Of a DNA stretch of 35,190 nt, positions 17,051 to 33,944 are shown piece after piece (positions within the stretch are counted from its first letter, which is position 1; every line of letters starts with the position of its first letter). Both the position numbers and the translations under genes were made by a program. Source of the stretch: a virus; the UHGV virus genome UHGV-1507218, one strand, 5' to 3'. The notes under the pieces were generated by a model. It had not been told where the DNA came from. It searched no databases and was given only the letters and a program-made list of their open reading frames with translations.

Positions 17051-17497
17051 TTATTCAGATTTCCATTGAAGCGCGTAGCCGCCATCGCAATATGCTTTTC
17101 GCAACTTCTCGATCACTTCAGCGCTTTCCTTGTGGAAACCAGAATAAGCAAGGAAATGTTCAAAGTTTTCCTCTTCGGTATGACCGCCTGAATCATGCAG
17201 ACGCTGTTTCAGGGCATAGCCCATAAGCGGCCACAATTCATTTTCTGCGTTTTCGATAGCGATCTGTTCACCAATTACAGCATTATCGTTTTCTGAAGAA
17301 GCTGAACATGATGGCCTGCCAGTAACAGCAAAACCGTTTTTCGTGGTCAGAACGGCCCAACGGAGTACCTGACCTGTAACAGAAACGTGTTTAACGATCT
17401 CTGTGTTGACGATATTTTCTTTAAAATCGCTCAGCGTAACGCGCGGTGCGGTTAAGCCTTTGGACTGAATTTGTTGCTCGATATCTTTGTCGCTCAC
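17051..17497 (-). CDS. Hypothetical protein between scaffold and capsid genes (GTG start, early-type RBS)
   Basis: ORF preceded by CCGAGGAAAGACCA then GTG; followed by its own terminator; no T7 counterpart. Confidence 0.45.
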   Translation of the reverse strand: MSDKDIEQQIQSKGLTAPRVTLSDFKENIVNTEIVKHVSVTGQVLRWAVLTTKNGFAVTGRPSCSASSENDNAVIGEQIAIENAENELWPLMGYALKQRLHDSGGHTEEENFEHFLAYSGFHKESAEVIEKLRKAYCDGGYALQWKSE

Positions 17498-17530
17498 TGG
17501 TCTTTCCTCGGGTTATGTTGTCGTGACATG

Positions 17531-22363: not shown

Positions 22364-22555
22364 TTATAGCACAGTCCCGTCTGGTTTTATAATGGTGTAA
22401 CCAGACAATTTAGCTAATTCAAACAACGCATTAAGTGTTGCGACATGTTCGTCGGGCTTTACGTCGCGGAGCTTTCTTGCCTTACCACTTTTGCACCTTA
22501 TCAGGACGTCGCCATCATCGGGGAGAAGGACTCCTGCATCGTTCTTATCAACCAC
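22364..22555 (-). CDS. Small SOS-controlled protein, candidate antirepressor (non-ATG start, GTG at 22555 or TTG at 22573)
   Basis: Only ORF downstream of the LexA-box promoter; it has no in-frame ATG and no family assignment. Confidence 0.4.
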   Translation of the reverse strand: MVDKNDAGVLLPDDGDVLIRCKSGKARKLRDVKPDEHVATLNALFELAKLSGYTIIKPDGTVL

Positions 22556-22579
22556 AACTCCTAAACCCCCCAATAACTA

Positions 22580-22599
22580 TACTGTATAAATTCACAGTA
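22580..22599. promoter_or_regulatory. LexA (SOS) box TACTGTATAAATTCACAGTA
   Basis: CTGT-N8-ACAG with 17/20 matches to TACTGTATATATATACAGTA. Confidence 0.75.
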
Positions 22600-22689: not shown

Positions 22690-22714
22690 AAAAGAAAACC
22701 GCCATTTCTGGCGG
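22690..22714 (-). terminator. Rho-independent terminator after the 112-aa gene
   Basis: Minus strand CCGCCAGAAATGGCGG followed by TTTTCTTTT. Confidence 0.6.
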
Positions 22715-22741
22715 CCTCCACGGTTCTGGTATGGTTGAACG

Positions 22742-23080
22742 TCACACAGTAAGTTTCGTCTCATGCCACCCATAAGTAACCCAGCACTGCGAATCACCGG
22801 CGCAGGGGCAACTGGTGATCGGTAACGGATCGCCGCACTTTCCACATAACCGTTTACTGATGGATTTAATACGGCTGCTCACTCGCGCGTCATCCTGGCG
22901 GATCAGCAACGCAATATACTCAGCTGCATCGTAGGGATCTCGACCGGGACGACGTGCGGCACAGTTGCGCGCCAGCATTTCCCGTTCCTGAGCATCGAGA
23001 ACCAGCTCAATTTTGCGGTTGCCGGCGGCAGACTGCCGCGCGCGCTGCGCGGCTTTACGTTCTGCGGATGATTTAGCCAT
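22742..23080 (-). CDS. Hypothetical protein with a C-terminal Cys-rich zinc ribbon
   Basis: CGKCGDPLPITSCPCAGDSQC; basic N-terminus. Confidence 0.4.
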   Translation of the reverse strand: MAKSSAERKAAQRARQSAAGNRKIELVLDAQEREMLARNCAARRPGRDPYDAAEYIALLIRQDDARVSSRIKSISKRLCGKCGDPLPITSCPCAGDSQCWVTYGWHETKLTV

Positions 23081-24909: not shown

Positions 24910-25578
24910 TTACACCCTCTTGTTTTTCGCTGACTCGACGTAATAACGGGGATCCACGCTGTTAAGCGTGAAATGAACCACTGGCGTATCGTCATGGCGA
25001 GTGATGCCGACATAGTTCGAATTGAACATGCTGAATACACGATCCTGAATTTCTTTAATCGTTACCTGGCATTCTGGATAGTGTTTCTGTAGCTGGGCGA
25101 GAATGGTCTGATAAGAAAGAGTTTTACCTTTCATCACGGCAACCAGCTGCTGCGCGGTAACTTTCCCGGCGCCAGGTTGATCGTCGCTGGCAAGCAGTGG
25201 ACGAACGCTGTCGAGTACCAGGCGATGACGGCCAGCACCGCCGACACGCTGACCGGTCTTTTTGTCGAAATGCTCATTAGCGCCGGCAGACCAGACGGTG
25301 ACACCTTCGCTCAGGCGCACAGTTTTTTCGCCTTTGGAATAAATCACGGTACCGAGATGGGTTTTACGGCGACGGCCTGAAACTGCTGGCAGCGGCGCTT
25401 CGCGTTTGATTGGCTTTTGCGGAGTAATCCCCGGCACTGGTTCTGGTCGCGGTGCGGCAATAAATACAGAACGACTACGCGCACGGGCGCCGGCGTTCAT
25501 GCGCCATAAAATAACGGGAAGCCAGTTGCAGCCATCATCCGGATTAACTGGTTTTGGGTAATTTAAATTTGTGGTCAT
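24910..25578 (-). CDS. Hypothetical protein (222 aa) after the helicase gene, with early-type RBS ACCGAGGAAAGACCAATG
   Basis: ORF with the conserved RBS; no family assignment. Confidence 0.45.
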   Translation of the reverse strand: MTTNLNYPKPVNPDDGCNWLPVILWRMNAGARARSRSVFIAAPRPEPVPGITPQKPIKREAPLPAVSGRRRKTHLGTVIYSKGEKTVRLSEGVTVWSAGANEHFDKKTGQRVGGAGRHRLVLDSVRPLLASDDQPGAGKVTAQQLVAVMKGKTLSYQTILAQLQKHYPECQVTIKEIQDRVFSMFNSNYVGITRHDDTPVVHFTLNSVDPRYYVESAKNKRV

Positions 25579-25616
25579 TGGTCTTTCCTCGGTTATATCG
25601 CGCTGGTCAGGCGCGG

Positions 25617-27005: not shown

Positions 27006-27994
27006 AGCGAACCTTCCCGGGTTTTACGTAACGTTTCAGGTTTCATCAGGTAGTCAAAGCTGGCGCGCCATCCTCCGCTGAGGCCGAAATAAAAATCTGA
27101 CGCATCAGCACGGAATTTTTCGAAGTAGCCCAGGAATGCGCCCGTAGTTTTGTTTTTCATGTGGGCGGCCAGTCTGGTAATCATCCGGCGGCGATCATCA
27201 TCCAGCTCTGCCGCCGGCAACGTATCAGCAAAAATTTCGTTGTAGCCGCTCATGACGGCTTCCGGGTCGATCTCAGCTTCCAACACGGCCCAAGCCTCGG
27301 CGTCAGCGAGATAGCCATCGAACCGTTTAACTCGGCAGATGTTCGCCGGCTTTGGTAACCCATCGCCACGGCGGCGCCATGTGGCTAATACCCAGCGAAT
27401 CACCAATTGGATTTCTGCCAGGGTGTACCCGTCTCGGGTAGTGGTGGGCGTCAGCATCATCACAAACGGATTAAGGTCACGGCAACGGGTACCGGTTTTC
27501 TCGTTGTAAAACTCAAGCGCTTTTTGAGCATCAGAAAAAATACGCTCGCCGTTTTCCCCCGTTTGGGGGTTAGGGGGATCTATATTCTCTGTAGTATTCT
27601 CTGTAAGAAAGTTTGCTGGTTTTCCACTTACTTGCTTGCTGGTTTTCCGCATTCCAGTATGTGGTTTTTCCGCATCCTTGTTTGCGGCTACAAGCGCTTG
27701 AAATAAAACATCATTATCAATCTTGTAGAAAAGACGAGCAGGTACACCTTTCTTTTTTTCCAGCAGTACACCAATTGAGCGAAGTTTCTTACGCGCCCCC
27801 TCCTGCTCGTAACGGGAAAGCCCTGTTTCTTCCTCCCATTCTTCCTGGGTTTTATATACCCATCCGTCATCGTCGGATCGGTTAGTCCAGTAAGTCATTT
27901 GAGACAGGAACAGTGCAGCCGTCACACCAATATTCAGACGAATGAAACTACGCTGGAAGGCGATCGGTCTGTCGAGTAATGGCAAAATATTCAT
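27002..27994 (-). CDS. Replication initiator / replisome organiser (lambda O-like) with internal origin iterons
   Basis: Position upstream of the helicase with overlap, a low-complexity linker, and iterons inside the gene as in lambda O. Confidence 0.6.
   Translation of the reverse strand: MNILPLLDRPIAFQRSFIRLNIGVTAALFLSQMTYWTNRSDDDGWVYKTQEEWEEETGLSRYEQEGARKKLRSIGVLLEKKKGVPARLFYKIDNDVLFQALVAANKDAEKPHTGMRKTSKQVSGKPANFLTENTTENIDPPNPQTGENGERIFSDAQKALEFYNEKTGTRCRDLNPFVMMLTPTTTRDGYTLAEIQLVIRWVLATWRRRGDGLPKPANICRVKRFDGYLADAEAWAVLEAEIDPEAVMSGYNEIFADTLPAAELDDDRRRMITRLAAHMKNKTTGAFLGYFEKFRADASDFYFGLSGGWRASFDYLMKPETLRKTREGSL
27583..27675. repeat. Putative origin of replication iterons: TATTCTCTGTA x2 and CTGGTTTTCC(G/A)CAT x3
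   Basis: Direct repeats at 27583-27593 and 27595-27605, then 27616-27625, 27639-27652 and 27662-27675, flanked by a CCCCC-GTTT-GGGGG palindrome. Confidence 0.55.
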
Positions 27995-27996
27995 CG

Positions 27997-28218
27997 TCAG
28001 ATCCCCAGCGAGTCAGCCAACTGACGGCAGGCGATTTCGTATTCTTTCTGAGTGAGCCCCGCTTCCTGCAAATCTGCCTTGCGTAGTTCGTAGCGTTCCC
28101 AGATGGTCAGCGCAGCTGTGCGACGTTCTTCGAAAATCGATTCGATATCTTCCATCGGGACTTGTACCCCGTTCCGGCGAAACCCGTTCCGCCAGGTGAT
28201 GCGGTCTTGTGTTCTCAT
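27997..28218 (-). CDS. Hypothetical small protein (early-type RBS ACCGAGGAAAGACCAATG)
   Basis: ORF with the conserved RBS between ydaT-like and the O-like gene. Confidence 0.4.
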   Translation of the reverse strand: MRTQDRITWRNGFRRNGVQVPMEDIESIFEERRTAALTIWERYELRKADLQEAGLTQKEYEIACRQLADSLGI

Positions 28219-28238
28219 TGGTCTTTCCTCGGTACAGG

Positions 28239-28685
28239 TTAAACGCTGGTCAGGCGCTGTGTTTCTCGCATCGCTTGCAATGCCTTCGCTACTTGCTGCG
28301 GGCCGTCTCTGGCCTCGAGCAATAACGCGATAATGGCCGCCGCAAATTCGCGTATGGCCACGCAGATCAAATACTGGGTGGACATGTCCAGGCGCGCGTA
28401 GCGTTCTGCCGGCAGTGCCGCTTCCATCGCTTTAGCCAGCGTCTGGGTTTTAGTTCTGGCCGCTTTCGTCTCACCACGCAGCCAGCGAAAAATCTGTTGG
28501 CGGTTGTTGTTGATGGCCCGCCAGTCTGCATTTCCGTCTGCATCTTCAATCTGGTGCAGCTTCAGCACGCCAGTGTTACCACAGAGACGAAACCACATAC
28601 GGCTTATCTCGATAGCAACCAGCTCCTGCCCGCTTTCAGCTGCCCAGCTAAATATCTCTCGTTTCAGTTCCTCGAGGTTCTCCAC
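28239..28685 (-). CDS. ydaT: YdaT-like protein (Rac prophage toxin-like / CII-like regulator family)
   Basis: QQIFRWLRGETK matches the YdaT signature RWLKGET; position after the cro-like gene as in Rac. Confidence 0.55.
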   Translation of the reverse strand: MENLEELKREIFSWAAESGQELVAIEISRMWFRLCGNTGVLKLHQIEDADGNADWRAINNNRQQIFRWLRGETKAARTKTQTLAKAMEAALPAERYARLDMSTQYLICVAIREFAAAIIALLLEARDGPQQVAKALQAMRETQRLTSV

Positions 28686-28745
28686 TTCGCGTCTCCTGTC
28701 GCTGAAAATTGATTAAGCGTAATCAGATTTAGATCACGCGGATTG

Positions 28746-28979
28746 TTAAGCTGCATCCTGTTCTGGTAACCCATCAGTGGGTTTCCGGTAAATGTTTGGG
28801 AGCAAATCGTGCGGGGTGACTTGGTATCCAGTTGCTGCAGCCCACTTCAACGCAGTTGCAGCACCGAGCAAACATTTACCAGTCGAGACGCGGCTTACAT
28901 AACCCTGAGACTCGCCGACAAGTTGAGCAAAGTCCTGTTGCCGTACGCCCGAGGTTTTTAGATAGGTTTTGAGATCCAT
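28746..28979 (-). CDS. Cro/YdaS-like XRE-family HTH regulator
   Basis: QQDFAQLVGESQGYVSRV HTH, divergent from the repressor, AGGAGG RBS. Confidence 0.7.
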   Translation of the reverse strand: MDLKTYLKTSGVRQQDFAQLVGESQGYVSRVSTGKCLLGAATALKWAAATGYQVTPHDLLPNIYRKPTDGLPEQDAA

Positions 28980-29079
28980 TTAGCCTCCTGAATGTTTATG
29001 TGACACATGAATATTAGTATTGCGAATACAAAAGTGTCAATAGTTACACGATTGGGAGGAAATTAATTTTACGAATATT
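28980..29079. promoter_or_regulatory. Divergent repressor/cro control region with three palindromic operator candidates
   Basis: ATGTGACACAT (28997-29007), GTATTGCGAATAC (29017-29029), GTGTCAATAGTTACAC (29033-29048). Confidence 0.5.
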
Positions 29080-29544
29080 ATGTGCGCCATGAGAAAGAAA
29101 ACGCTTGATGCAGCTGAGGCTGACGCAGCACAAAGGCTGCGAGAAATATGGAACGAGAAAAAAGTAACTTTACGTCTTACTCAAGAAAAGGCGGCGGATG
29201 CTCTCGGCTTTAGTACACAAGCGACAATAAGCCAGTACCTAAACGGCAGCATCCCACTAAATACGGATGCAACACTTAAATTTTCAGCCCTTCTTGGTGT
29301 TAAGCCAGAAGATATACGGCCGGATCTTGCCGAACTGATGAACTTCATTCGTAAAACCGACAGCCACGTTCAAGATTATTCCGCTGCTGGTTGGCGTTTA
29401 CTAAAACCAGAAGAGTCGGAGCTAATAGAACTTTATGAAAGATTACCGCAAAGTGAAAAAGAAAGGCATCTATCTGAATTAAAAGAGAAAGTAAGTGGAT
29501 TTGATCGCCTTTTTGAAGAACTTTTAGCGACCCGTAAGCAGTAA
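29080..29544 (+). CDS. racR: Prophage repressor, RacR-like (HTH only, no S24 peptidase domain)
   Basis: N-terminal XRE HTH LTQEKAADALGFSTQATISQYLNG similar to lambda cI / P22 C2 DNA-binding domains; only 154 aa, with no Ala-Gly cleavage site and no Ser/Lys peptidase domain. Confidence 0.65.
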   Translation: MCAMRKKTLDAAEADAAQRLREIWNEKKVTLRLTQEKAADALGFSTQATISQYLNGSIPLNTDATLKFSALLGVKPEDIRPDLAELMNFIRKTDSHVQDYSAAGWRLLKPEESELIELYERLPQSEKERHLSELKEKVSGFDRLFEELLATRKQ

Positions 29545-29560
29545 ACCCTACCTCCCAACT

Positions 29561-29586
29561 AATCCCGCATAGCCGGGATTTTTTTA
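29561..29586 (+). terminator. Rho-independent terminator after the repressor gene
   Basis: ATCCCG catagc CGGGAT followed by TTTTTTT. Confidence 0.6.
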
Positions 29587-29639
29587 TCCTTTTTAATCAA
29601 CACCATACAAAAAATATTCGCAATACGATTATTTTTGGC

Positions 29640-29668
29640 TTGACCTTAAATATACGCATAACTAATAT
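29640..29668 (+). promoter_or_regulatory. Early-left sigma70 promoter TTGACC-17-TAATAT
   Basis: Near-consensus hexamers with a 17-nt spacer. Confidence 0.6.
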
Positions 29669-29818
29669 CACCAACATCAACGACGCACTAACCACGCGGC
29701 AGTTGTTCAGAAACAGTTCTGACAGTCCGGAAAGACGGGCAAGAATTCTTCGGGTCGCCGACAGTACGATGACATGCGGGAAAGACCGCAACGAATGCGA
29801 ATTGCTGTGTGTAGTCTT

Positions 29819-29846
29819 GGCCCCGGCGCCCGGGGCATTTTTTTCA
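29819..29846 (+). terminator. Rho-independent terminator / attenuator inside the early-left leader
   Basis: GCCCCGG cgc CCGGGGC followed by ATTTTTTT. Confidence 0.6.
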
Positions 29847-29885
29847 CATAGTAGCGATTTATGCGACCCTTCAGTGAAAACTGAA

Positions 29886-29903
29886 GCCCTCGAAAAGAGG
29901 GGC
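29886..29903 (+). promoter_or_regulatory. boxB-like RNA hairpin (5-bp stem, GAAAA pentaloop)
   Basis: CCCTC GAAAA GAGGG compared with lambda boxB GCCCU GAAAA AGGGC. Confidence 0.35.
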
Positions 29904-30109
29904 CCCGTGAGGAAAGACCGTAGAGCCTGACCAGCTCTGACACCGGGAAAGACCGGGAGGAAAGACCAACGGGATTGACCACCCTGACAGCCGGGAAAGA
30001 CCGGCAACCTTTAGATAGCAAAAGGCCCGCACAAGGCGGGCCAGTTACCCCGAACGGTGACCAAACCATTCGGATTTTTGCCGGGAACCACCCCGGCTAG
30101 GAAAGACCA

Positions 30110-30133
30110 ATGCAGGCCAGAGCCACACACTGA
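30110..30133 (+). CDS. 7-codon upstream ORF (MQARATH) on the conserved RBS motif
   Basis: TAGGAAAGACCAATG then six codons and TGA, 34 nt upstream of the first early-left gene. Confidence 0.3.
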   Translation: MQARATH

Positions 30134-30166
30134 TCGGCTCTGAGTATACAACACTAAGGAGCCGCT

Positions 30167-30490
30167 ATGGAAGCGCTTACCATCCCCGTAACTATCTACG
30201 TTATGGCAACAACCAATCCATATCTACCAACGTCTTATCACTCATTCACCTGTGACATGTCACAGAAATATCCTGATTCGTACGTGCTTGTTACTACCAA
30301 AACGGTAGAGATTGCCATTCCTGCTTTAGAGCCTATCGATATTATCGGGATGCAGGTTAATGCCCTTCGCGCGAAGAAAGAGCAAATATCTGCTGATGCC
30401 AACAAACAGTTAAGCGTTATTGAAGACCAGATCCAGCAGCTGCTGTGCATCGACCACTCTCCGATTGAAGAAAGCGACGTCCCTTTTTGA
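30167..30490 (+). CDS. Hypothetical protein, first gene of the early-left operon
   Basis: AAGGAG RBS, 107 aa, no family assignment. Confidence 0.45.
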   Translation: MEALTIPVTIYVMATTNPYLPTSYHSFTCDMSQKYPDSYVLVTTKTVEIAIPALEPIDIIGMQVNALRAKKEQISADANKQLSVIEDQIQQLLCIDHSPIEESDVPF

Positions 30491-30497
30491 GGTTCCT

Positions 30498-30743
30498 ATG
30501 ACAAATAACTCATTCATCGAAAAAATAATCGATGCTGGCTTATCAGTAATTGAGCACGAAAATAATAGCGACTTTGGTTCAGGGACTATGCATATCACCA
30601 TCATCGGCGGTGTTCGTCGTGTCGAGTTCTACCCTACTACTGGCACCGTTTACGCCAATGCTGAAAAGGGAAAATTTCCGGCGTTCAAGCAGAAAAAAGC
30701 CGGGATTAAAGTTGCTATCCGTTTAGCCAAATCCGGCGCGTGA
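30498..30743 (+). CDS. Hypothetical protein (81 aa)
   Basis: GAGG RBS before ATG at 30498; the longer frame in the ORF track overlaps the previous gene. Confidence 0.4.
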   Translation: MTNNSFIEKIIDAGLSVIEHENNSDFGSGTMHITIIGGVRRVEFYPTTGTVYANAEKGKFPAFKQKKAGIKVAIRLAKSGA

Positions 30744-30773
30744 CCTGCGCCTGCAACCAAGAGGAAAGACCAA

Positions 30774-32917
30774 TGACCATCTACAACGGCTTATTCGAGC
30801 CAAAAAAATCGGCTATCAAAGACTGCGGCGCCGTGCAGCTGGCGATCGCCGTCGAAGCACCAAACAAGAAAATCGCCGAAAGCATTATCACCGGCAAACT
30901 CTGGGAATCTTACCCGGCGAACGGTGACAACTATTTTAAACCGAAGCTATGGGAACACGAAGAAGGCCAGCCGCTGCCGACCGTTGGCCAGTTCGACGAG
31001 CTATTCGCCCAGCAACATACTTTCGACGGTGAAAAATGGGTTTCCATTGCCGCGAACGGCACCGCCGGTGAGGAATCAAATTTACCCGCTGACGATGATG
31101 TTATCGATCTGATGACTGTTTCCCCAGGCGAACGCTTTGCAGCCGTTCTGCTGTTTAGCACCGCTCAGATTGATGGCCATATCTATTCTCAGGTTGTGGA
31201 TTATCTGGATAACCTGAATAACCGTGATACCGAACTGGAAGAAGAAGATCGTTTTAACCTTAACGTTCTGTGTGCTCTGCACAATAACGAACCAGTCAAG
31301 CACATGCATGTTGAAGGTCTGAATAATCTTATTCAGGGGATTTTCTACCATTTTGAAAACCAGACTCCGGGCAAAGCGGCTATTTCTCAATTTGTAAAAC
31401 GCTGGCTTGAGAATCCCGGTAAACGTGAAGAAATGGTACCAGGCCAAAATTCCTCACTCGGCGCCGCCAGCACTGATACCAACGTAAAAATCGCGCCAAA
31501 ACGTGGTTATAAACATACCTATGCAACACTGGATCAGGAGATCGCTGTCGCCCTACTCCCTATTTCTCCCGACGCGCCAGTATTATCAGGCAACCTTCGC
31601 GATGCTGAGAAAATCATTGCAGACGAGCGCGAAGATTTTAAACGTTGGTCAATGGCGCTTCGCACCACGGAGCACATTCTCAAATATGACCGAGACAGTA
31701 TTTTTGGCGTAGTGCAGAACGTACCGGCAAAAGATACCTACCATTTCCCTGACAGCCTACGCCGCCACATTGATTCATGGCTCGAAGCAAATGGCCGCTT
31801 TGAAGAAACAGAGACAGGATCCGTTAAACAACCAGAGGCAACGCAAAATACCGCCTCAAACGTGGTCGAAAAAGCGGAAGTACCACAGCCGGTGGTAACC
31901 GATACCCAGGCCAAACAGGCGCGTGAGACGCTCAACGATATGGGCTATGGCGTATATGCCTCTGGTGATGCAGAACAGCCAGTAGAGAAGTTAAGCACTA
32001 AAGCGGAAACAATAGCTGATAACGCCGAGGTGCTGGCAAAGCAAATTATTCATGCTGAAAGACTGCCTGACGCTGAAGAAGTAATGAAGTCTGCCGGCGC
32101 GCAGAGTATCGGACAGGATAATTTAGAACTGTGGAAACGTGTATTCAAAACTGATGAACGGTTTACTAAAGCCTTTACGCAGAACGGCGGCGGTACCTCG
32201 ATCAACGGTACCTATTTAACCATGCTTGCCACTCGCGAGTTTGGGCCAAAGGGAATCGGCTGGGGTGTGGACATCCTCGAGGAACGTTTCGATATCGGCG
32301 CCCCCATTACACGCCAGGTGAAAGGGAAAGATAACAATGCGTCATGGGAGTTAGTGCTCGACGGGAATGGAAATACCGTCAACGAGCAGCATCACGTCGT
32401 TACCGTGCGACTCTGGTACATCCTGAATGGTGTGCGCGGCGAGGAAACGGCCTACGGTTGCACGCCATACATTTACGGCAGTAAGTACGGTATTACCTGC
32501 GATGGTGAGGCAACAAAAAAATCGCTGACTGATGCAACCAAAAAGGCTTTATCTGGCCTCGGCTTCAGTGGCGATATCTTCATGGGCCTTTACGACAATC
32601 TGGAATACCGCCAGAAAAACAAGGCAGAGTTTGATCTGAAGAATGCCAGCGAAACCGCAGAGGACGCTGCACGTCTTCGCCAGGAGTTTGACGACAAACT
32701 TAGCCGTGTTGCTAACACCCTGGCACATGGCGTGACAGTGAACGAAATAAACGGCGTGTTCTCCCCTATCGCACGTGAAATCGATGTTCACATTAAGGCC
32801 GCACAGGCCAACGGTGACGCACAACATGAACGCTATCTGTCTGGCCGCTTGCGCCGACTCATAACGATTAAAGACGGACGCATCAAAGAACTGAATAAAG
32901 CCGAGGAGAAAGCATAA
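30774..32917 (+). CDS. Large fusion protein with a C-terminal Rad52/Sak-family single-strand annealing domain
   Basis: The C-terminal region (YLTMLATREFGPKGIGWGVDI; VTVRLWYILNGVRGEETAYGCT; ATKKALSGLGFSGDIFMG) matches the Rad52 N-terminal-domain motifs ([56 protein letters not shown]). Start at MTIYNG on the GAGGAAAGACCAATG RBS. Confidence 0.6.
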
Positions 32918-33484: not shown

Positions 33485-33670
33485 ATGCTGAGACTATCCC
33501 TGAAGAAAGGTGATGCGGTTCATGTCGTTTTACCAGATGGAACCAACGCAATTATCGAAGCGCGGGCCCGTTGCGAACTCGGCATGCACTTCCCCCGCAA
33601 TATCAAGATAACGCGTGAAGATGGTGCATTCCGACCAAAACAAAACCTGATTAAGCGTAATCAGAAATAA
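33485..33670 (+). CDS. 61-aa protein with CsrA-like sequence pattern (candidate RNA-binding translational regulator)
   Basis: Ungapped alignment to E. coli CsrA (also 61 aa) conserves M1 L2 L4 G9, I/L32 G33, P37 K/R38, V/I40, V/I42 and the R44-E45-E/D46 RNA-binding motif. Confidence 0.45.
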   Translation: MLRLSLKKGDAVHVVLPDGTNAIIEARARCELGMHFPRNIKITREDGAFRPKQNLIKRNQK

Positions 33671-33719: not shown

Positions 33720-33944
33720 ATGCTACGTTGGCAACCAGGTGTAGTTTTACTTTCAGAATTCGATATCAAAATTGGCAGGCTATCAGCCAGCGTTAGAAAG
33801 AGGACTCTGACCCAGTCCGATATTCAGCGCGCTTGCGATGCAGCAGACAACGCTATAGCCGGCATGCTGAGGAAAGACCATGAAACACGATCACGACATC
33901 ATCACCAGAGAGGAAATGATCGAACTGACGGGGACGCCGCTTAA
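33720..33944 (+). CDS. Hypothetical small basic protein
   Basis: GGAG RBS before ATG at 33720 (MLRWQPG). Confidence 0.35.
   Translation: MLRWQPGVVLLSEFDIKIGRLSASVRKRTLTQSDIQRACDAADNAIAGMLRKDHETRSRHHHQRGNDRTDGDAA

What the first reader, a model, noticed from the sequence alone, without database searches (positions are those of the whole stretch)
29729..30112. Early-left leader packed with GGAAAGACC elements (decoy RBS-like hairpins)
Between the early-left promoter (29640-29668) and the first ORF (30167) lies a roughly 490-nt untranslated leader. It contains 7 copies of GGAAAGACC. Three are CCGG/GCGG-GAAAGA-CCGG/CCGC mini-hairpins, and one (GGAGGAAAGACCAACGG, 29956-29972) matches the phage's own RBS consensus exactly but with CGG in place of ATG. 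A roughly 30-nt unit is duplicated. A 9-mer occurring 7 times in 400 nt is far beyond chance and the spacing is irregular, so it is not a CRISPR array. The arrangement resembles a CsrB-like GGA-motif sponge or a multi-site translational or antitermination control leader, and lies upstream of an operon that ends with a CsrA-like ORF.
Basis: partly seen in the sequence, partly recalled or inferred. Interest (0 to 1): 0.75.

Follow-up and report, generated by a model that had tools for sequence, protein, structure and literature searches.

The report
Phage leader hides an anti-RBS small RNA
The repeated GGAAAGACC motif is real: it is a standard ribosome-binding cassette used by several genes of this prophage, and the leader that carries extra copies also encodes, on the opposite strand, a conserved small RNA complementary to that cassette, which points to an undescribed RNA switch for phage gene translation.

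Summary
The leader has 6 exact GGAAAGACC copies and one GGAAAGACG, against 0.2 expected in the whole window.

Three points change the interpretation.

1. Outside the leader, the motif sits directly before start codons. It is the core of a shared cassette, GAGGAAAGACCA(A)TG, at five genes here and at 158 of 173 sites in relatives.

2. The right third of the "leader" (about 30018-30136) encodes a small RNA on the minus strand.
- It has a conserved -10: TATACT here, TGnTATAAT in a divergent subfamily.
- It has a canonical minus-strand terminator and three covarying helices.
- Those helices contain 165 G·U cells on the minus strand and only 9 on the plus strand.
- It has an invariant UGGUCUUUCC, with 11-14 nt of perfect complementarity to the cassette start sites.

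3. The first 170 nt from PL end at a strong terminator and carry an RprA-like 3' module.

Best model: the antisense RNA blocks translation of cassette-bearing genes, and the sense copies in the PL leader act as cis targets or decoys for it.

The CsrA-sponge reading is not supported. The 61-aa ORF is only marginally CsrA-like.

Nothing matched in Rfam or in the literature searched. All evidence is computational.

The parts
29615..29668 (+). PL-like early-left promoter (-35 TTGACC 29640-45, -10 TAATAT 29663-68) with operator-like repeats. The transcription start is inferred near 29675.
   Evidence: Promoter scan. Inverted repeats I1 and I5 match the PR/PRM operator region at 29010-29028.
29675..29846 (+). 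Short PL transcript (segment 1). It comprises a 5' strand, hairpin hp0 (29707-29722), H1, a small hairpin, H2, the RprA-like 3' module and terminator T1. A long G·U-rich helix closes the 5' strand onto the RprA-like stretch.
   Evidence: MFE fold. Family alifold on the + strand gives 183 G·U against 2 A·C cells, so the + strand is the folded one.
29725..29740 (+). H1: hairpin GUCCG-GAAAGA-CGGGC, the motif copy with one mismatch.
   Evidence: Orthologous stems vary as GUCCG/CGGGC, GCCCG/CGGGC, GUCUG/CAGGC and GUCUG/CAGAC.
29776..29789 (+). H2: hairpin GCGG-GAAAGA-CCGC. It occupies the position of the RprA seed hairpin.
   Evidence: Variants are CCGC/CUGC (G·U) and GAGG/CUUC. Rfam alignment to RprA.
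29795..29846 (+). RprA-like 3' module. CGAATTGCTGTGTGTAGTCTT (29798-29818) is identical to the RprA consensus. It is followed by intrinsic terminator T1: stem 29820-29836, then a T run.
   Evidence: Rfam RF00034 at 38.4 bits, E = 0.005, below the 70-bit gathering score. Relatives score 37-50 bits. Terminator scan.
29909..29919 (+). R1: linear cassette copy GAGGAAAGACC with no start codon.
29922..29938 (+). Hairpin with loop CUGACCA (hpY1).
   Evidence: Stems covary among relatives (GGGC/GCCC, GAGC/GCUC, ACGC/GCGU).
29943..29956 (+). H3: hairpin CCGG-GAAAGA-CCGG.
29957..29972 (+). R2: linear cassette copy GAGGAAAGACCAACGG, with ACG in place of ATG.
29971..29984 (+). Hairpin with loop AUUGACCA (hpY2).
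29990..30005 (+). H4: hairpin GCCGG-GAAAGA-CCGGC.
30018..30136 (-). Predicted antisense small RNA of about 119 nt. It comprises a 5' helix P1, the seed CAUUGGUCUUUCCU (+ coordinates 30099-30112, the complement of 'R3'), SL_A (30080-30097), SL_B (30050-30073, loop UUGGUC) and the terminator hairpin 30042-30024 followed by UUUUGC.
   Evidence: Alignment A4 and its consensus structure. 97.9% of cells are paired, 13 pairs have double changes, 0 of 500 shuffles reach this, and slid controls give 37-50%. There are 165 G·U cells on the minus strand against 9 on the plus strand. Loop-class strand signature. Terminator. CM hit at 153 bits, a single copy.
30143..30148 (-). -10 element of the small-RNA promoter: TATACT here, TATAAT in some relatives, and TGATATAAT or TGATATACT (an extended -10) in a divergent subfamily. 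No good -35 is present.
   Evidence: and the invariant columns of A4.
30761..30775 (+). RBS cassette GAGGAAAGACCAATG of the 714-aa exonuclease-like gene, preceded by a hairpin with loop GUGACCU.
33869..33882 (+). RBS cassette GAGGAAAGACCATG of the excisionase gene (DUF4224).
28216..28230 (-). RBS cassette of the phrog_2465 gene in the PR operon, preceded by a hairpin with loop CUGACCA.
   Evidence: (I3, I9).
25576..25590 (-). RBS cassette of the phrog_4183 gene, downstream of the DnaB-like helicase and preceded by a hairpin with loop CUGACCA.
17495..17509 (-). RBS cassette GAGGAAAGACCAGTG of a phrog_322 gene in the structural region.
33485..33670 (+). 61-aa all-beta protein (phrog_2482), marginally CsrA-like. 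It co-occurs with the small RNA and the cassettes in both subfamilies. Its role is unknown.

Best explanation
The motif cluster appears to be the visible part of an RNA-RNA control circuit in a lambdoid enterobacterial prophage.

Shown from sequence:
- GAGGAAAGACCA(A)TG is a standard translation-start cassette used by a subset of phage genes in the PL, PR and late regions.
- A small RNA of about 119 nt is encoded on the minus strand just upstream of the first PL gene. It has its own -10 element and its own intrinsic terminator.
- This RNA carries an invariant UGGUCUUUCC seed. The seed is complementary to the cassette from the Shine-Dalgarno sequence to the start codon.
- It also carries two hairpins with UUGGUC loops.

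Inferred:
- The small RNA pairs with cassette-bearing start sites and blocks ribosome binding. This would hold excisionase, exonuclease and other cassette genes off, much as the antisense RNAs of P22 (sar) and P1 (c4) do.
- The PL leader carries further sense copies of the same motif: four in GAAAGA hairpin loops and two or three linear. It is also fully complementary to the small RNA over 119 nt.
- When PL is derepressed, these copies would bind and consume the small RNA as decoys. Alternatively they would let it act on the leader itself.
- The abundant short PL transcript ends at terminator T1. It carries two of the hairpin copies on an RprA-derived 3' module, which probably supplies Hfq binding and stability.

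How terminator T1 is read through remains unexplained.
For: Motif enrichment:
- The motif is enriched and strand-specific.

The cassette marks gene starts:
- Outside leaders, 158 of 173 distinct GGAAAGACC sites in relatives are followed within 0-3 nt by a start codon and an ORF of at least 40 aa.
- Five such genes lie in the window.

Evidence for the minus-strand RNA:
- Hairpins whose + strand loop is GACCAA or UGACCAAA have 0-1 G·U on the + strand but 38 + 20 on the minus strand.
- In the 27-sequence alignment, 97.9% of cells pair and 13 pairs show double changes. No shuffle of 500 reaches this, and slid controls give 37-50%.
- Cell counts are 535 Watson-Crick, 165 G·U on the minus strand and 9 on the plus strand.
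- A canonical terminator lies on the minus strand only, with U4 here and U6-7 in relatives.
- The -10 is invariant as TATACT or TATAAT. It is a full extended -10, TGATATAAT, in a subfamily retrieved independently.
- The covariance model finds one copy in the window at 153 bits.

Complementarity:
- The seed has 14 nt of perfect complementarity to three start sites and 11 nt to two more. All 31 other start sites reach at most 7 nt, apart from the cis overlap with ORF1's leader.
- Predicted duplexes are -22 to -25 kcal/mol with unstructured targets, against -9 to -10 for ordinary start sites.

The leader copies are not start sites:
- The copy on the sense strand opposite the seed (R3) is followed by ACG in 51 leaders, ATG in 38 and something else in 5.
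- The motif core is invariant while its flanks vary.

Other support:
- The R-hairpin-H unit is kept in the divergent subfamily.
- H1 and H2 covary with G·U on the + strand.
- The RprA-like module is detected by Rfam.
- The element is widespread: 454 of 5426 complete E. coli genomes, more than 110 IMG/VR contigs, and Citrobacter, Enterobacter, Raoultella and Pseudescherichia genomes.
Against: - There is no expression data. The promoter has no recognisable -35 in the main family, so activity and timing are unknown.
- Because the motif is repeated in the sense orientation, any antisense copy is automatically complementary to all of them. The complementarity is therefore not independent evidence for trans action.
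- The seed and cassette cores are invariant, so no co-variation test was possible.
- In the window's predicted fold, part of the seed (UUGGUC) is paired within P1.
- The middle part of the leader (29850-30010) shows no clear strand signature.
- H1 and H2 are absent from the divergent subfamily, so they are not essential to the core.
- The aligned sequences are related, with 79% mean column identity, so the shuffle statistics overstate significance.
- A conserved small protein of unknown function co-occurs with the system and could be the real ligand.
Confidence: 0.5

Rival explanations
1. Protein-binding array. The GGAAAGACC/GACCA elements would be binding sites for an RNA-binding protein: host CsrA, the conserved 61-aa phage protein, or another factor. 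That protein would control translation at the cassettes, and the leader would act as a CsrB-like sponge.
For: - All copies contain GGA, and several are in or next to hairpin loops.
- The cassettes overlap Shine-Dalgarno sequences.
- A 61-aa all-beta protein aligns without gaps to CsrA at M1, L2, L4, G9, G33, P37 and R44, with Pfam E = 0.014.
- That protein co-occurs with the system in both subfamilies.
Against: - The CsrA match is below threshold and is seen in only 3 of 10 relatives.
- In the H hairpins the GGA straddles the stem and loop rather than sitting in the centre of the loop.
- The best-conserved hairpins fold on the minus strand, and their loops (UUGGUC) lack GGA.
- No Csr/Rsm RNA family matches.
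Confidence: 0.15
2. Portable RBS cassettes and recombination scars. The cassette, with its upstream hairpin, would be a module boundary shared among genes. The leader copies would be remnants of small genes gained and lost by recombination between cassettes, comparable to the promoter-stem-loop cassettes of T4-type phages. They would have no regulatory role.
For: - The copy number varies from 4 to 9 among relatives.
- Start codons of leader copies are decayed (ACG).
- Different cargo sequences are inserted in the same leader in relatives.
- One relative has an annotated 37-aa ORF starting at a leader copy.
Against: - The motif core is invariant while its flanks and start codons drift.
- Hairpin stems covary at orthologous positions.
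- The R-hairpin-H unit is conserved between divergent subfamilies.
- Scars would not explain the minus-strand promoter, the terminator or the G·U signature.
Confidence: 0.15
3. Antitermination elements. The GAAAGA hairpins would be boxB-like sites for an N-like protein, or part of a put-like RNA, that lets RNA polymerase read through terminator T1 and downstream terminators.
For: - A strong terminator sits 150 nt into the PL transcript, so readthrough must be provided somehow.
- The hairpins have constant purine-rich loops and variable stems, like boxB.
- H1 follows another hairpin directly after the promoter.
Against: - No hairpin with a GAAAGA loop exists anywhere in the PR operon, so there is no nutR or putR counterpart.
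- No copy of the 5' module lies elsewhere in the region examined (27500-30800).
- No boxA is present.
- The first PL gene has no arginine-rich motif.
- H1 and H2 are absent in a subfamily that keeps the terminator.
- Most motif copies lie downstream of T1.
Confidence: 0.07
4. Mimic of host structural RNA. GGAAAGACC equals 23S rRNA positions 2056-2064 (the A2058 region), and GAGGAAAGACC differs by one base from the conserved GAGGAAAGUCC of RNase P RNA. The hairpins could be decoys for a factor that recognises those RNAs.
For: - The 9-mer is identical to the 23S sequence ACGGAAAGACCCCGU quoted in papers found.
- The RNase P resemblance rests on my own recollection of the sequence.
Against: - A 9-mer match to a 4.5-kb rRNA set is expected by chance a few percent of the time.
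- The flanks do not match.
- No such factor is known in this phage.
- The idea does not explain the cassette position at start codons or the antisense RNA.
Confidence: 0.02

Closest known systems
P1/P7 c4 antisense RNA with its a/b target repeats, and the P4 CI RNA with seqA/seqC (phage 'RNA immunity'; own knowledge: Citron & Schuster 1990; Sabbattini et al. 1995)
   Same: - A small phage RNA is complementary to short sequences repeated in the leader of an early operon.
- At least one repeat overlaps a ribosome-binding site.
- Recognition loops are present.
   Different: - c4 and CI are processed from the same strand as their targets. Here the RNA is encoded antisense, with its own promoter and terminator.
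- The targets here include standard RBS cassettes on several unrelated genes in different operons.
- There is no sequence or CM similarity: the Rfam C4 and c4-a1b1 models do not hit the window.
P22 sar RNA and lambda OOP RNA (cis-antisense RNAs in lambdoid immunity regions; own knowledge)
   Same: A short RNA with an intrinsic terminator is transcribed against an early operon of a lambdoid phage. sar blocks an RBS.
   Different: - sar and OOP act on the single gene they overlap.
- This RNA does not overlap the RBS of the adjacent gene (its start lies about 30 nt upstream of the ATG).
- Its seed instead matches RBS cassettes elsewhere in the genome.
Prophage-encoded anti-sRNAs and sponges (AgvB, AsxR; Tree et al. 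2014, PMC4104026, listed)
   Same: - A prophage transcript carries mimic target sites that could titrate a small RNA.
- Hfq-type 3' ends are present.
   Different: - AgvB and AsxR sponge host sRNAs, each with one mimic site.
- Here the proposed sponge is the phage's own PL leader, with 4-9 sites, and the sRNA is the phage's own.
RprA (Rfam RF00034), host Hfq-dependent sRNA
   Same: - The 21-nt stretch CGAAUUGCUGUGUGUAGUCUU and a following terminator are shared.
- In some relatives the whole 3' 45 nt, including the terminator stem, is nearly identical.
- H2 sits where the RprA seed hairpin is (PMC5861431 places the seed in a stem-loop about 31 nt from the 5' end).
   Different: - The score is 38 bits against a gathering score of 70.
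- The 5' half and the hairpin loop sequence differ.
- The transcript comes from a repressor-controlled phage promoter.
- The RprA-like stretch is predicted to be paired with the 5' end.
CsrB/RsmZ-CsrA sponge system
   Same: - One RNA carries many short GGA-containing repeats, some in hairpins.
- The same motif lies at Shine-Dalgarno sequences of regulated genes.
   Different: - The repeat is a fixed 9-13-mer, not a loose ANGGA.
- There is no family match.
- The partner protein is not shown to be CsrA-like.
- A complementary RNA exists.
Plasmid copy-control antisense RNAs with YUNR loops (CopA/CopT, RNA I/RNA II; own knowledge: Franch et al. 1999)
   Same: - Hairpin loops reading UUGG(UC) fit the YUNR U-turn pattern.
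- Complementary loops (UGACCA, GACCAA) occur on the target RNAs, suggesting kissing contacts.
   Different: - The biological context is different.
- The proposed targets are in trans as well as in cis.

Membership tests
CsrB/RsmZ-type protein sponge RNA | Match to a Csr/Rsm RNA family model | tested here: not met
   No Rfam hit at gathering threshold. The only hit is rsmX at E = 7, on the minus strand.
CsrB/RsmZ-type protein sponge RNA | Many GGA motifs presented in the centre of hairpin loops or in single strands | tested here: inconclusive
   All 7 copies contain GGA. In the 4 hairpins the GGA straddles the last stem pair and the loop.
CsrB/RsmZ-type protein sponge RNA | Binding and sequestration of a CsrA-family protein | not testable with these tools
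   Needs gel shift or CLIP.
CsrA protein family (for the 61-aa ORF 33485-33670) | Pfam PF02599 above the gathering score, or the CsrA fold | tested here: not met
Lambda N / nut antitermination site | boxB hairpin with a boxA upstream | tested here: not met
   Hairpins with purine-rich loops exist, but no boxA-like CGCTCTTTA was seen in the leader sequence I read. I ran no pattern search for it.
Lambda N / nut antitermination site | A second site (nutR) in the PR operon and an arginine-rich N protein encoded after nutL | tested here: not met
   No hairpin with a GAAAGA loop outside the PL leader. The first PL ORF has no arginine-rich N-terminus.
HK022 put RNA | A two-stem RNA of about 70 nt just after PL, with a related copy after PR | tested here: not met
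   No repeat of the 5' leader module elsewhere in the region examined, 27500-30800. The description of put is taken from PMC9378689. No direct sequence comparison with putL was made.
Phage regulatory antisense RNAs (functional class: sar, OOP, c4, CI) | A discrete small RNA gene with promoter, terminator and conserved structure | tested here: met
   -10 element, terminator, covariation and strand signature, covariance model hit. Computational only.
Phage regulatory antisense RNAs (functional class: sar, OOP, c4, CI) | Complementarity to the ribosome-binding site of phage genes | tested here: met
   11-14 nt of perfect complementarity at five start sites, against at most 7 nt at the others. Duplex energies.
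Phage regulatory antisense RNAs (functional class: sar, OOP, c4, CI) | Expression and repression of the target in vivo | not testable with these tools
   Needs RNA-seq or Northern blots and reporter assays.
C4 antisense RNA family (Rfam RF01695, clan CL00128) | Match to the family model | tested here: not met
   No hit in the window. A true C4/isrK module was found elsewhere in relative L002, so the search does detect this family.
RprA (Rfam RF00034) | Score at or above the gathering threshold over the full model | tested here: not met
   38.4 bits against 70 in the window, and 37-50 bits in relatives. Only the 3' part is homologous.

The most novel reading that the evidence does not exclude
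A phage-wide 'addressed translation' switch. One antisense small RNA would gate every gene that carries a standardised 13-15-nt RBS cassette, including excisionase and recombination genes. This would give a second layer of immunity that is independent of the repressor.

On induction, the PL leader and a short chimeric RNA would flip the switch by sponging the small RNA. That chimeric RNA consists of cassette-mimic hairpins grafted onto the 3' Hfq module of the host sRNA RprA. Because the module is RprA-derived, it may at the same time compete with or imitate RprA in the host.

This would be an uncharacterised circuit type, present in about 8% of complete E. coli genomes, including ST131 prophages.
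Probability: 0.3. Interest if true: 0.85.

Novelty: new variant of a known kind. Interest (0 to 1): 0.7.

Why it matters
If the model is right, a common family of enterobacterial prophages controls a defined set of its genes by RNA pairing at a shared ribosome-binding cassette. The family is found in 454 of 5426 complete E. coli genomes, including ST131-type strains, and in Citrobacter, Enterobacter, Raoultella and other genera. The controlled set includes excision and recombination functions, and the leader would carry built-in decoys.

Three consequences would follow.
- It would add a post-transcriptional layer to lysogeny control in lambdoid phages that lack N/nut.
- It would be a natural example of a multi-site RNA sponge for a phage sRNA.
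- It would show a phage reusing the 3' module of a host sRNA (RprA).

The circuit is easy to test, because both the seed and the targets are short and well defined. Even if trans action fails, the minus-strand small RNA and the RprA-like PL transcript are unannotated RNA genes that current pipelines miss.

Tried and rejected
**Rfam searches**
- At gathering threshold on the window there were no hits.
- At the permissive threshold on the leader, only the sub-threshold RprA match was meaningful.

**Literature searches**
- I searched for the 9-mer, the 11-14-mers, 'RprA-like', phage CsrA homologues and put.
- Nothing describes this element. The 9-mer hits concern 23S rRNA A2058 and TLR13, which I judged coincidental.

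**CsrA-like ORF**
- The exhaustive homologue search found only a small family of 19 proteins with no annotated relatives.

**N/nut and put readings**
- I looked for GAAAGA-loop hairpins and for repeats of the 5' module in the PR operon. None were found.

**Leader mini-ORFs**
- They are not conserved. The start codon is ATG in 38 leaders and ACG in 51. Indels in the alignment are not multiples of three.

**Seed-target co-variation**
- The test was impossible because the core is invariant.

**RNAduplex on full-length RNAs**
- It gave meaningless long-loop duplexes. I replaced it with longest-complement counts and short-window duplexes.

**Strand signature of the middle leader (29850-30010)**
- Undecided.

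**15-mer cassette scan of IMG/VR**
- Single hits are at chance level. Loci with several hits are this phage family.
Full report
**Context.** The window is a lambdoid-type enterobacterial temperate phage or prophage.
- A cro-like gene (28746-28979, minus strand) and a cI-like HTH repressor (29080-29544, plus strand) face each other.
- The repressor gene ends in a terminator at 29561-29580.
- Next comes a promoter-like site, TTGACC-17-TAATAT, at 29640-29668.
- That site is flanked by repeats matching the operator region between cro and cI (inverted repeats I1 and I5). It is therefore a repressor-controlled PL.
- Downstream lie a 107-aa ORF (30167), an 81-aa ORF, a 714-aa exonuclease-like gene, a Gp157/Gam-like gene, two small ORFs, an excisionase (DUF4224) and an integrase.

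**The observation.**
- GGAAAGACC occurs 6 times exactly between 29779 and 30108, and once with a mismatch at 29729. All copies are on the + strand.
- The window holds 11 exact copies against 0.2 expected.
- Four copies form hairpins with a GAAAGA loop (29725-40, 29776-89, 29943-56, 29990-30005). Three are linear (29909-19, 29957-69, 30099-112).

**What the motif is elsewhere.**
- The five copies outside the leader all lie on the sense strand directly before start codons. They form a 13-15-nt cassette, GAGGAAAGACCA(A)TG or GTG, at 30773 (exonuclease-like), 33880 (xis), 28218, 25578 and 17497.
- Three of them are preceded by a short hairpin whose loop reads CUGACCA or GUGACCU. The same kind of hairpin sits between the leader copies.
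- In about 107 related loci, 158 of 173 distinct non-leader GGAAAGACC sites are followed within 0-3 nt by a start codon and an ORF of at least 40 aa.
- A scan of IMG/VR for the 15-mer gives multi-copy loci only in this phage family.

**Relatives.**
- The leader is found in two phages deposited as Stenotrophomonas phages.
- It is in 454 of 5426 complete E. coli genomes, for example an ST131-type prophage next to tRNA-Leu.
- It is in more than 110 IMG/VR contigs and in Escherichia whittamii, Citrobacter, Enterobacter, Raoultella and Pseudescherichia genomes.
- The 94 distinct leaders carry 4-9 copies of GGAAAGAC.

**Segment 1 is a small plus-strand transcript with an RprA-like end.**
- A strong intrinsic terminator, with 7 G-C pairs followed by AUUUUUUU, lies at 29820-29844, about 150-170 nt after the inferred start.
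- Rfam's RprA model aligns to 29745-29846 at 38 bits (E = 0.005, below the 70-bit threshold). The stretch CGAAUUGCUGUGUGUAGUCUU is identical to the consensus. Relatives score 37-50 bits.
- Some relatives carry almost the complete 3' 45 nt of RprA, including its terminator stem.
- H2 aligns with the RprA hairpin. According to PMC5861431, that hairpin holds the RprA seed.
- The predicted fold closes the 5' end onto the RprA-like stretch in a long G·U-rich helix. Across 43 variants the plus-strand structure has 183 G·U and 2 A·C cells, so this part folds as plus-strand RNA.
- In many relatives a structured cargo of 150-500 nt is inserted between H2 and the RprA-like part.

**The right part of the leader encodes a minus-strand RNA.** Five independent observations point this way.
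1. Hairpins whose plus-strand loop is GACCAA or UGACCAAA have 0-1 G·U wobbles on the plus strand. They have 38 + 20 positions that are A·C on the plus strand, which is G·U on the minus strand.
2. I aligned 27 distinct relatives, retrieved through an 18-mer about 400 nt away so that this region was not pre-selected. The minus-strand consensus has a 5' helix, SL_A (loop UUGGUC) and SL_B (loop UUUGGUCA).
 - 97.9% of cells are paired, and 13 pairs have changes on both sides.
 - None of 500 shuffles reaches this, and slid controls give 37-50%.
 - The cells are 535 Watson-Crick, 165 G·U and 9 A·C. The same helices would be only 76% paired on the plus strand.
3. The hairpin at 30024-30042 is followed by a U run only on the minus strand: UUUUGC here, U6-7 in relatives.
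4. A -10 element on the minus strand (TATACT, 30148-30143) is invariant as TATACT or TATAAT. A divergent subfamily was retrieved through the small-RNA sequence itself. There the element reads TGATATAAT or TGATATACT, a full extended -10, at the same distance from the first helix.
5. A covariance model built from the alignment finds a single copy in the window, 30007-30164 on the minus strand, at 153 bits.

The predicted RNA runs from about 30136 to about 30018. Alignment indels that are not multiples of three argue against a coding role.

**Link to the motif.**
- The RNA contains an invariant UGGUCUUUCC.
- In the window, CAUUGGUCUUUCCU has 14 nt of perfect complementarity to the start sites of the genes at 30773, 28218 and 25578, and 11 nt to those at 33880 and 17497. 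It covers the Shine-Dalgarno sequence through the start codon.
- All other start sites reach at most 7 nt.
- Short-window duplexes are -22 to -25 kcal/mol on unstructured targets, against -9 to -10 for ordinary start sites.
- The leader copy 'R3' (30099-30112) is simply the DNA complement of this seed. That explains why its ATG is not conserved: 51 leaders have ACG and 38 have ATG.
- The loops UUGGUC and UGGUCA are complementary to the GACCAA and UGACCA loops found upstream of cassettes. They also fit the YUNR pattern of antisense recognition loops (own knowledge).

**Model and its limits.** I infer three things.
- The small RNA represses translation of cassette genes.
- The sense copies in the PL leader (H1-H4, R1, R2) and the fully complementary stretch act as decoys or cis targets when PL fires.
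- The short T1-terminated RNA serves as an Hfq-loadable carrier of two decoy hairpins.

Weak points:
- There are no expression data.
- The main family has no recognisable -35.
- Complementarity follows automatically from the repetition.
- The core is invariant, so co-variation cannot be tested.
- Part of the seed is paired in the predicted fold.
- H1 and H2 are absent from the divergent subfamily.
- How T1 is read through is not explained.

**Rivals.**
- The CsrA-sponge idea is weakened by the negative or marginal tests on the 61-aa ORF and by the GGA-free minus-strand loops. That protein does co-occur with the system in both subfamilies, so it may still take part.
- 'Recombination scars of portable RBS cassettes' explains the variation in copy number. 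It does not explain the invariant core, the covariation or the antisense gene.
- N/nut- or put-like antitermination lacks a PR counterpart, a boxA and an N-like protein.
- The identity with 23S rRNA 2056-2064 is probably chance.

**Known relatives and novelty.**
- The closest known systems are the phage antisense or 'RNA immunity' regulators (P1/P7 c4, P4 CI, P22 sar, lambda OOP) and the prophage anti-sRNAs.
- None matches by sequence or model.
- None combines an antisense-encoded RNA, a standard RBS cassette on several genes and a decoy array.
- I found no description in Rfam or in the searched literature.
- I classify it as a new variant of a known kind. It is well supported as an RNA gene, and hypothetical as a circuit.

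Noticed in passing
window 29745-29846 (+): The PL-proximal transcript ends in a copy of the 3' part of the host sRNA RprA, with 21 nt identical to the Rfam consensus followed by a terminator. Some relatives carry nearly the whole 3' 45 nt of RprA. This suggests that the phage captured a host sRNA module.
   Followed up: partly
L001 6115-6380; L002 6115-6420; L003 3120-3440 (relatives, same position as window ~29790): Relatives carry different structured inserts of 150-500 nt between hairpin H2 and the RprA-like end. The ST131-type insert ends in a tRNA-like T-arm (GGTTCGATTCCGGGCGCCCA). There is no Rfam or ARAGORN hit, and their nature is unknown.
   Followed up: partly
window 22580-22599 (-) and ORF 22364-22573 (-): A LexA-box-like palindrome, TACTGTGAATTTATACAGTA, lies upstream of a 63-69-aa ORF (phrog_340, with a weak anti-repressor match at E = 0.003). 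The cI-like repressor has only an HTH domain. Induction may therefore work through an SOS-controlled antirepressor, as in Gifsy-type phages.
   Followed up: partly
window 22694-22719 (-), after ORF 22742-23080: A strong terminator follows a 112-aa protein (phrog_536, 'transcriptional regulator'). The protein has an arginine-rich N-terminus (MAKSSAERKAAQRARQSAAGNRK) and a Cys-rich C-terminus. It could be a late or antitermination regulator. A non-coding stretch of about 450 nt follows.
   Followed up: no
L001 (OM816835.1 / OM816834.1): The two closest deposited phages are labelled Stenotrophomonas phages. Their early region is 87-89% identical to this window, which has about 50% GC, and it is shared with E. 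coli and other Enterobacteriaceae prophages. The host label looks doubtful.
   Followed up: no
L002 303-500 (relative, - strand of locus): The ST131-type relative also carries a bona fide C4 antisense RNA / isrK / c4-a1b1 module (75-80 bits) in its PR-side region. That phage therefore has two different antisense-RNA systems. The window has none of these.
   Followed up: no
window 33485-33670 (+): The 61-aa all-beta protein is conserved in every relative with enough downstream sequence except two. Its family is tiny: 19 proteins among 1.8 billion cluster representatives. It aligns without gaps to CsrA at several key positions, but without statistical support.
   Followed up: yes
window 30143-30175: The sequence around the ORF1 start (CGCT-ATGGAAG-CGCT) is almost invariant. 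It lies where the -35 of the minus-strand promoter would be. The direct tetramer repeat flanking it is reminiscent of CII-type activator sites. This is speculation.
   Followed up: no
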